Assembly (NCBI GenBank): GCA_964016885.1
Contig: OZ024746.1
Span: 50,840,001 to 50,904,000, forward strand
Origin: Eledone cirrhosa
Lineage: Eukaryota
Direction of reading: 5' to 3'
DNA length: 64,000 nt
Shown: positions 42,441 to 42,676 of the stretch, in pieces
Layout: each line of letters starts with the position of its first letter
How positions within the stretch are numbered: position 1 is the stretch's first letter
Position numbers and translations under genes: made by a program
The notes under the pieces: model-generated
Seen by the model: only the letters and a program-made list of their open reading frames with translations
Database searches by the model: none
What the model was told of the DNA's origin: nothing

Positions 42441-42676
42441 CAATATTCCTTGTCCTTGTCTGGCTTTCTGAAGAATAGAGGAGAGGTGTTTCCTCAAAAA
42501 CCAGTATGACTCTAAAAACCGGTTTGTCTGTGTGTTTACATACAGAATAGCTGGCCACTCACAGTAAAGTGACCAGTGAAAAAACTTGGTACACCTACAT
42601 ATGTATACGTGTGTGTATTCATATACATACTAGTATTTCAGTATACATATATGGATGTACATCTTTAACTTAATTG
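42441..42676 (+). mobile_element. Diverged half-unit of the 470-nt family, starting at the HHR cleavage site
   Basis: Starts caatattcc..., ends ctttaacttaattg|(TA)n; homologous to the reverse complement of ~31731-31958. Confidence 0.85.

What the first reader, a model, noticed from the sequence alone, without database searches (positions are those of the whole stretch)
42441..42676. Insertion whose 5' end is exactly the predicted hammerhead cleavage site
Seen: the 470-nt family HHR reads GAAACUAGUC|CAAUAUUCC. This solo copy starts at CAATATTCC immediately after the AT tract and ends at ctttaacttaattg, the same 3' point used by the inverted ends at 22218 and 33154. Inference: it is a cDNA of the linear self-cleaved RNA, a genomic fossil showing that the minimal HHR cleaves in vivo and that the product is retrotransposed into (TA)n.
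Basis: partly seen in the sequence, partly recalled or inferred. Interest (0 to 1): 0.8.

Follow-up and report, generated by a model that had tools for sequence, protein, structure and literature searches.

The report
Retrozyme fragment starting at ribozyme cut
A 236-base scrap of a small jumping repeat in an animal genome begins exactly at the predicted cut site of the repeat's own ribozyme, so it was likely copied from the cut RNA, but it is a single case and the repeat belongs to a known kind.

Summary
The insert at 42441-42676 lies between (TA)n tracts and starts at base +1 of the predicted hammerhead cut of a 470-nt tandem repeat. It belongs to a diverged subfamily (198 of 236 positions match). 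A contig of that subfamily in a related organism runs through the ribozyme with a GUU, not GUC, triplet, so homology does begin at +1. The insert is half a unit. Its 3' end is the first of two fixed element ends (+226, +299), the Penelope 'tail' pattern of internal RT initiation. The ends at 22218 and 33154 are one event, not two. The repeat is a non-LTR retrozyme in a window full of Hydra-type Penelope elements. Only 1 of 26 ribozyme-family pieces that reach their cut stops there (chance about 5%; 16% at plus or minus 1 nt). Reads and contigs from three related organisms showed no end-peak at the cut, though output was truncated. Verdict: probably (0.6) a run-off copy of cleaved RNA, a minor dead-end route. 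It does not show in vivo cleavage by itself, and such cleavage is already published for this class.

The parts
42441..42676 (+). Solo insert: +1 to +226/227 of the retrozyme RNA, no ribozyme core; diverged subfamily
   Evidence: subfamily variants
42448..42459 (+). 6-nt tandem duplication (CCTTGT x2) starting at +8, just outside the stem I 3' strand
   Evidence: not among indels listed table 4
42187..42440 (.). Left (TA)n target tract, ending out of phase (ATAATA); base -1 is A where the parent subfamily has T
42677..42821 (.). Right (TA)n target tract
42589..42660 (+). Predicted long hairpin 11-16 nt before the 3' end (candidate RT-binding/initiation stem-loop)
   Evidence: z -2.8 here, -5.1 in the array unit; no compensatory pair changes in 5 sequences
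31436..33071 (-). 3.5-unit tandem array of the 470-nt retrozyme; hammerhead cores start at 32929, 32459, 31989, 31519 (the last has G8>C); predicted +1 at 32898, 32428, 31958, 31488
33067..33154 (+). Inverted 88-nt terminal piece (+138 to +225) ending at the first fixed 3' end, then (TA)n
21583..22055 (-). One-unit (473-nt) copy with intact hammerhead (core 21913), from the second fixed end (+299) back to the same point one unit upstream
22051..22218 (+). Inverted terminal piece with local 80-bp duplication; same inversion junction as 33071
32129..32202 (-). Penelope-type 'tail' (about 73 nt) between the two fixed 3' ends; 32129 is a (TA)n junction in related organisms
   Evidence: 11 contigs with (TA)n loose ends at 32129 in X1; contigs starting at 32129/32131 in X5, X4; hairpin z -3.4
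14159..16654 (+). Open 831-codon Penelope-like RT-GIY-YIG frame with Hydra-clade motifs; candidate kind of helper (not shown to be the helper)
26548..31439 (-). Second Hydra-type Penelope-like element (ORF 30344-28108, frameshifted) with pLTR hammerheads at 26739 and 30557; its inverted 5' piece is fused to the array at 31436-31439

Best explanation
The 236-bp insert is the 5' half of a 470-nt hammerhead tandem repeat (a non-LTR retrozyme), sits between (TA)n tracts and starts at +1 of the predicted cut; it was likely made by a Penelope-type reverse transcriptase running off the end of a self-cleaved RNA. Steps. (1) Shown: the tandem unit has an intact type I hammerhead whose stem III is a palindrome. 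(2) Inferred from the axolotl and newt precedent: multimeric transcripts cleave as dimers, giving linear RNAs that start at +1. (3) Inferred: a Hydra-clade Penelope protein nicks (TA)n and starts reverse transcription inside the RNA, just 3' of a hairpin, at +226 or +299. The two fixed ends are shown. (4) Inferred: on a cleaved RNA the enzyme runs off at +1, perhaps adding a base or two, and the end is joined without microhomology. The product has no ribozyme core and is a dead end. The productive route uses uncleaved or re-ligated RNA, as in the other two insertions here and 25 of 26 pieces overall.
For: 5' homology starts exactly at +1 (10 of 10 nt). A 155-nt contig of run X5 carries 13 of the insert's 15 substitutions over 31852-31958 and continues through the ribozyme with U at position 17 (table 3 and record 13; compared; assigned to one contig from equal depth 137.3 and matching end distances). 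So the insert's base -1 (A) mismatches its true parent, and the insert is about 97% or more identical to that parent there; divergence does not hide extra homology. No microhomology at the junction and an out-of-phase TA end, as for R2 5' junctions made at ribozyme-cut ends (PMC3774820, abstract and passages). Exact coincidence has P about 0.05 within the window. Two fixed 3' ends with a tail between them match Penelope internal initiation (PMC11167929). Hydra-clade motifs RWR, DKT and CxCX5C occur in window ORFs, and that clade targets (TA)n. Retrozyme RNAs with short stem III accumulate as linear and circular monomers in axolotl (PMC7229834).
Against: n = 1. 25 of 26 pieces that reach a cut run through it. 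In one search no begin/end peak and no loose-end row at 31958 appears among the rows shown for four runs (2 and 106 rows not shown). Contigs of the insert's subfamily span the cut unbroken, while 11 X1 contigs mark the (TA)n junction at 32129. In vitro, a Penelope protein used uncleaved RNA as its main template, and no RNA-seq reads began at its cut (PMC11167929). The parent subfamily has a change at 31970 that would break the second pair of stem II unless compensated by a row not shown, and GUU is a weaker triplet (recalled). 8 of 9 Xenopus retrozyme dimers did not cleave in vitro (10.64898/2026.07.22.740005). +1 is also the edge of the three-way junction, a plausible RT stall point; three other pieces end 23-25 nt upstream of their cuts.
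Confidence: 0.6

Rival explanations
1. Ordinary 5' truncation on an uncleaved (multimeric or circular) RNA. RT fell off by chance or stalled at the ribozyme's three-way junction, and the end happens to be +1.
For: 5' truncation straight into (TA)n is routine here: 19 other 5' ends lie within range of a cut, about 0.002 per nt. Chance of one exact hit per window like this is about 5%, and the scan reads very many windows. With a five-fold stall at the junction and a 1% prior, the posterior for cleavage falls to 0.4 (priors are my assumptions). The 6-nt duplication at +8 suggests RT pausing at stem I. Uncleaved RNA is the main template in PMC11167929.
Against: The end is exact, not near. A stall would be expected at +7/+8, where RT first meets stem I, or inside stem II, where the other near-ribozyme ends lie (-23 to -25). 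There is no microhomology to favour this base.
Confidence: 0.33
2. The end was made after insertion at DNA level, by a deletion or (TA)n expansion that removed the upstream part of a longer copy.
For: The window is heavily rearranged, with nested inserts and long unstable TA tracts.
Against: The TA-like sequence that could guide such a deletion lies upstream of the core, not at the cut. The insert is little diverged from its parent subfamily. Reading the last five flank bases as decayed element needs two substitutions in 5 nt.
Confidence: 0.07

Closest known systems
Metazoan non-LTR retrozymes (Cervera and de la Pena 2020, PMC7229834; Li et al. 2026, 10.64898/2026.07.22.740005)
   Same: Non-coding tandem repeat of a few hundred bp, low GC, one type I hammerhead per unit with short palindromic stem III, found as arrays and solo pieces, beside Penelope-like elements.
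   Different: 470 nt is slightly above the 150-450 bp quoted in 2020 but inside the 51-972 bp range of 2026. In the parts I read, neither paper maps element ends, tails or 5' ends at the cut.
Penelope-like element pLTR/tail insertions, Hydra clade (Craig et al. 2021, PMC8557442) and Poseidon PAc (Frangieh et al. 2024, PMC11167929)
   Same: (TA)n targeting, 5' truncation, inverted 5' piece, a tail at one end only, two fixed 3' ends near stem-loops downstream of the hammerhead.
   Different: No ORF; tail about 73 nt rather than 30-40; PAc used uncleaved RNA and showed no RNA ends at the cut. No sequence similarity to a helper's pLTR was found in the window.
R2 retrotransposon 5' ends set by an HDV-like ribozyme (Eickbush et al. 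2013, PMC3774820)
   Same: Genomic 5' junction at the ribozyme cut, with non-templated bases and no fixed homology.
   Different: In R2 this is the normal full-length product of a different ribozyme class. Here it would be a rare dead-end product lacking the ribozyme.

Membership tests
non-LTR retrozyme | Tandem repeat of a few hundred bp, low GC, no ORF | tested here: met
   470-nt period, 3.5 copies, 98% matches; about 30% GC in the region; no ORF of 110 aa or more within the array
non-LTR retrozyme | Type I hammerhead in at least two consecutive units | tested here: met
   3 of 4 array units have an intact core, 1 has G8>C; Rfam HH9 E 6e-7 but below gathering score
non-LTR retrozyme | Short palindromic stem III suited to dimer cleavage | tested here: met
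   ACUAGU self-duplex -4.8 kcal/mol; closing even one stem III pair in the monomer costs about 6 kcal/mol. Prediction only.
non-LTR retrozyme | Self-cleavage activity; linear and circular monomer RNAs in cells | not testable with these tools
   needs a cleavage assay and northern or end-specific RNA-seq
Penelope-type insertion | Fixed 3' ends with optional tail; inverted 5' piece; 5' truncation; microsatellite target | tested here: met
   ends at +225/226 and +299, inverted 88-nt piece, (TA)n flanks; +299 junction also in runs X1, X4, X5
Penelope-type insertion | Derivation from the pLTR of an identified autonomous element | tested here: inconclusive
   no match between the unit and any ORF-bearing element in the window self-comparison; no whole genome held
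Hydra-clade Penelope (neighbouring ORFs) | RWK-like motif, DKT, CxCX5C linker, C-terminal GIY-YIG, hammerhead in pLTR | tested here: met
   RWR and DKT in 3 of 3 aligned ORFs; CxCX5C and GIY-YIG-like region in the complete one against section 11 of PMC8557442. No tree built; Pfam gave 0 hits for 3 proteins.
Ribozyme-delimited 5' end (R2-like) | A population of independent 5' junctions at the cut | tested here: inconclusive
   1 of 26 in the window; no peak among rows shown, which is truncated and biased

The most novel reading that the evidence does not exclude
Penelope RT copies whichever form of retrozyme RNA it meets, and the genome records each form. Cleaved linear RNA gives fixed-length dead-end inserts (+1 to +226 or +299). 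A circular monomer gives an exact one-round copy from +299 to +299, as at 21583-22055. Counting these classes genome-wide would be a DNA-only readout of hammerhead cleavage and circularisation in the germ line, and would show that cleavage without ligation limits spread.
Probability: 0.3. Interest if true: 0.65.

Novelty: new member of a known kind. Interest (0 to 1): 0.38.

Why it matters
The role of hammerheads in Penelope-like elements and retrozymes is still open. Papers propose circular templates, while the one in vitro system finds cleavage dispensable. If cut-delimited inserts form a real class, linear cleaved RNA is a template in the germ line, and any genome assembly could be used to score which ribozymes cleave. 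One insert only motivates that count. The family itself is an ordinary retrozyme, though its two mapped 3' ends and tail tie retrozyme spread to Penelope internal initiation more directly than co-occurrence does.

Tried and rejected
No whole genome is held, so the genome-wide 5'-end plot could not be made. Sequencing-run search: 20 of 24 rows hold part of the unit, best share 0.42; no RNA holder listed. The large end-peaks in RAD-seq run X23 at 32154-32156 and 32206 coincide with TTAA sites at 32153-32156 and 32205-32208 and have mixed flanks (agreement 0.34-0.39). I rejected them as restriction-library artefacts (the enzyme, MseI, is my recalled guess). Pattern scans: 0 hits in metagenome, viral and genome contigs; 2 hits with a 20-mer, both chance matches without flanking similarity. 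Rfam at gathering score finds no hammerhead in the window. Pfam found nothing for 3 ORFs. The hairpin before the 3' end shows 0 of 27 pairs with compensatory change in 5 sequences from only two lineages: uninformative. I first misread the neighbouring element's ribozyme as antisense to its ORF; it is sense. I first took the ORFs for Nematis; the motifs fit Hydra. In the tally I left out the short pieces at 22356, 26184 and 37393-37597, because their link to the ribozyme at 37740 is unclear, and counted the 13.7k/21.07k segmental duplicate and the shared 22055/33071 junction once each. Earlier-findings look-ups by place, sequence and one word set were empty. Two papers I wanted (Terminon ribozymes; dimeric Penelope hammerheads) are not held and are not used.

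Full report
Setting. The window is AT-rich animal DNA, with 2-kb bins from 9 to 44% GC and many long (TA)n tracts. It is packed with Penelope-like elements: several RT frames, one open for 831 codons at 14159-16654. [quoted passage not shown] These are the diagnostics of the Hydra clade, which has hammerheads and inserts into (TA)n (PMC8557442 section 11). I built no tree. No whole genome is held.

The repeat. 31436-33071 is a 3.5-copy array of a 470-nt unit. On the minus strand each unit has a type I hammerhead with a 6-bp stem I, 5-bp stem II and palindromic ACUAGU stem III; C17 is at 31959 and +1 at 31958. Three of four cores are intact and the leftmost has G8>C. Rfam HH9 matches at E 6e-7, 34.2 bits, below its gathering score of 52. 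The monomer cannot close stem III favourably, while the palindrome self-pairs at -4.8 kcal/mol. This is the canonical metazoan form described in PMC4209133 (parts 1-2 of 4), and the array fits the non-LTR retrozyme definition (PMC7229834 passages and Discussion; 10.64898/2026.07.22.740005 parts 1-3 of 5).

The insert. 42441-42676 lies between two (TA)n tracts. It matches +1 to +226/227 of the unit at 198 of 236 positions, with 29 substitutions and a CCTTGT duplication at 42448-42459. The first 10 bases equal +1..+10. Because it is 16% diverged, its own parent might have read differently before the cut. settles this. In run X5 a 155-nt contig (31852-32005, depth 137.3, 18 other letters) carries 13 of the insert's 15 substitutions in 31852-31958 and the 1-nt insertion at 31948, and continues through the ribozyme with changes at 31959, 31970, 31975 and 31996. 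I assign these rows to one contig from equal depth and matching end distances; 17 of its 18 differences are visible. The parent triplet is therefore GUU, stem I gains a seventh pair, and the insert's base -1 (A) does not match. Overall 20 of the 29 substitutions are among the 40 rows shown (53 not shown). The 5' end is thus exactly +1, with no microhomology.

The 3' end. The insert ends 1-2 nt beyond the ends at 22218 and 33154. Those two share the same inversion junction and the start of the same imperfect TA flank, so they descend from one event. A second fixed end lies at +299: the left end of the copy at 21583, 11 contigs with (TA)n loose ends at 32129 in X1, and contigs starting at 32129 (X5) and 32131 (X4). 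Both ends lie just 3' of predicted hairpins (z -5.1 and -3.4; no covariation available). Two ends with a tail between them is what internal RT initiation produces in the Penelope element PAc (PMC11167929 parts 1-2 of 4), and tails and inverted 5' pieces are standard for the group (PMC8557442 passages). The insert is therefore half a monomer, not a copy of the whole linear RNA.

Is +1 more than chance? I scanned the window for other hammerheads and mapped pieces of 11 families. In a hand-curated tally of 33 pieces, 26 reach their cut; 1 stops there and 25 run through. Nineteen other 5' ends over 8826 nt give 0.0022 per nt, so one or more exact hits has P 0.054, and 0.155 at plus or minus 1 nt (exclusions listed under Tried and rejected). 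With assumed priors of 0.5-10% for a cleaved template, the posterior ranges from 0.62 to 0.97, or 0.25 to 0.88 if RT stalls five-fold more often at the junction. Three pieces end 23-25 nt upstream of their cuts (one may be a diverged intact copy), which hints at structure-induced stops.

Population test. Four of 24 listed runs were laid on one unit at 80% likeness: 794, 2 and 36 contigs, and 3316 RAD-seq reads. No begin/end peak at 31958 is among 8 rows shown (2 not shown), at a depth of about 400-550. No loose-end row at 31958 is among 19 shown (106 not shown), and depth does not step down across the cut. Power is low: contigs drop rare junctions and collapse identical ones, RAD fragments favour copies with both restriction sites, and these are related organisms, not the source. 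Cut-delimited copies are at most a minority; they are not excluded.

Mechanism. Most likely (0.6) a Hydra-type protein nicked (TA)n, started at +226 on a self-cleaved RNA and ran off at +1. This resembles R2 junctions at ribozyme-cut ends (PMC3774820 abstract and passages). The product lacks the core and is a dead end. The main rival (0.33) is truncation or stalling on uncleaved RNA, the dominant template for PAc in vitro. The other two insertions of this family span intact ribozymes and must come from uncleaved or re-ligated RNA. Which autonomous element is the helper is unknown; the array is fused to one at 31436-31439, but they share no other sequence.

Novelty. The family is a new member of a known kind. 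In vivo processing of such repeats is published. Six literature searches listed no paper that, in title, abstract or the parts I read, reports genomic 5' ends at a hammerhead cut for Penelope elements or retrozymes. The library lacks most subscription papers, two relevant ones were not held, and supplements were not read. An earlier unchecked note of this scan reports two similar mini-inserts in a fungus, and another rejects such a case; I did not test either. Interest 0.38: a neat, testable lead resting on one junction.

Noticed in passing
window 21583-22055 and 33071: The main piece's 5' end (-173, i.e. +297 of the previous unit) falls within 2-3 nt of the second RT start (+299), making the 21.6-kb copy exactly one unit. 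This would fit one round on a circular RNA or a collision with a second bound RT on a multimer.
   Followed up: partly
window 31052-31439: The retrozyme array is fused through a 4-nt T overlap to the inverted 5' piece of a Hydra-type Penelope element, with no (TA)n between: possible template switch between helper and retrozyme RNA, or a later deletion.
   Followed up: partly
window 36889-37248: A second small (TA)n insert with the same plan (tail at the left end, inversion after a similar short motif, inverted piece at the right) and weak, low-complexity similarity to the 470-nt unit; no hammerhead found in it.
   Followed up: partly
window 1908, 2823, 5506, 21.07k, 24.2k, 25106, 37740, 43144, 45712, 49036, 52108: About ten further hammerhead-bearing Penelope-type families in 64 kb, most with palindromic stem III; one has a stem II insert of about 110 nt (21070-21212), one a tail of about 70 nt (48883-48955), one a degenerate core in a near-perfect inverted pair (42827-43319).
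   Followed up: partly
window 31519: The leftmost array ribozyme carries G8>C, the change that abolished cleavage of the PAc hammerhead.
   Followed up: no
window 42115-42186 (-): tRNA-like sequence (Rfam 30.9 bits) directly abutting the insert's left (TA)n tract; possibly a SINE head.
   Followed up: no
window 9335-14030 and 16717-21415: Local segmental duplication of about 4.7 kb (97-99% identical) flanking the open Penelope-like ORF at 14159-16654.
   Followed up: no
window 344-1006, 35976-36763, 44102-44436: Fragments that look like other retroelements: an LTR-type pol on the minus strand near 344-1006, and two non-LTR RT C-terminal fragments (judged by eye translations).
   Followed up: no
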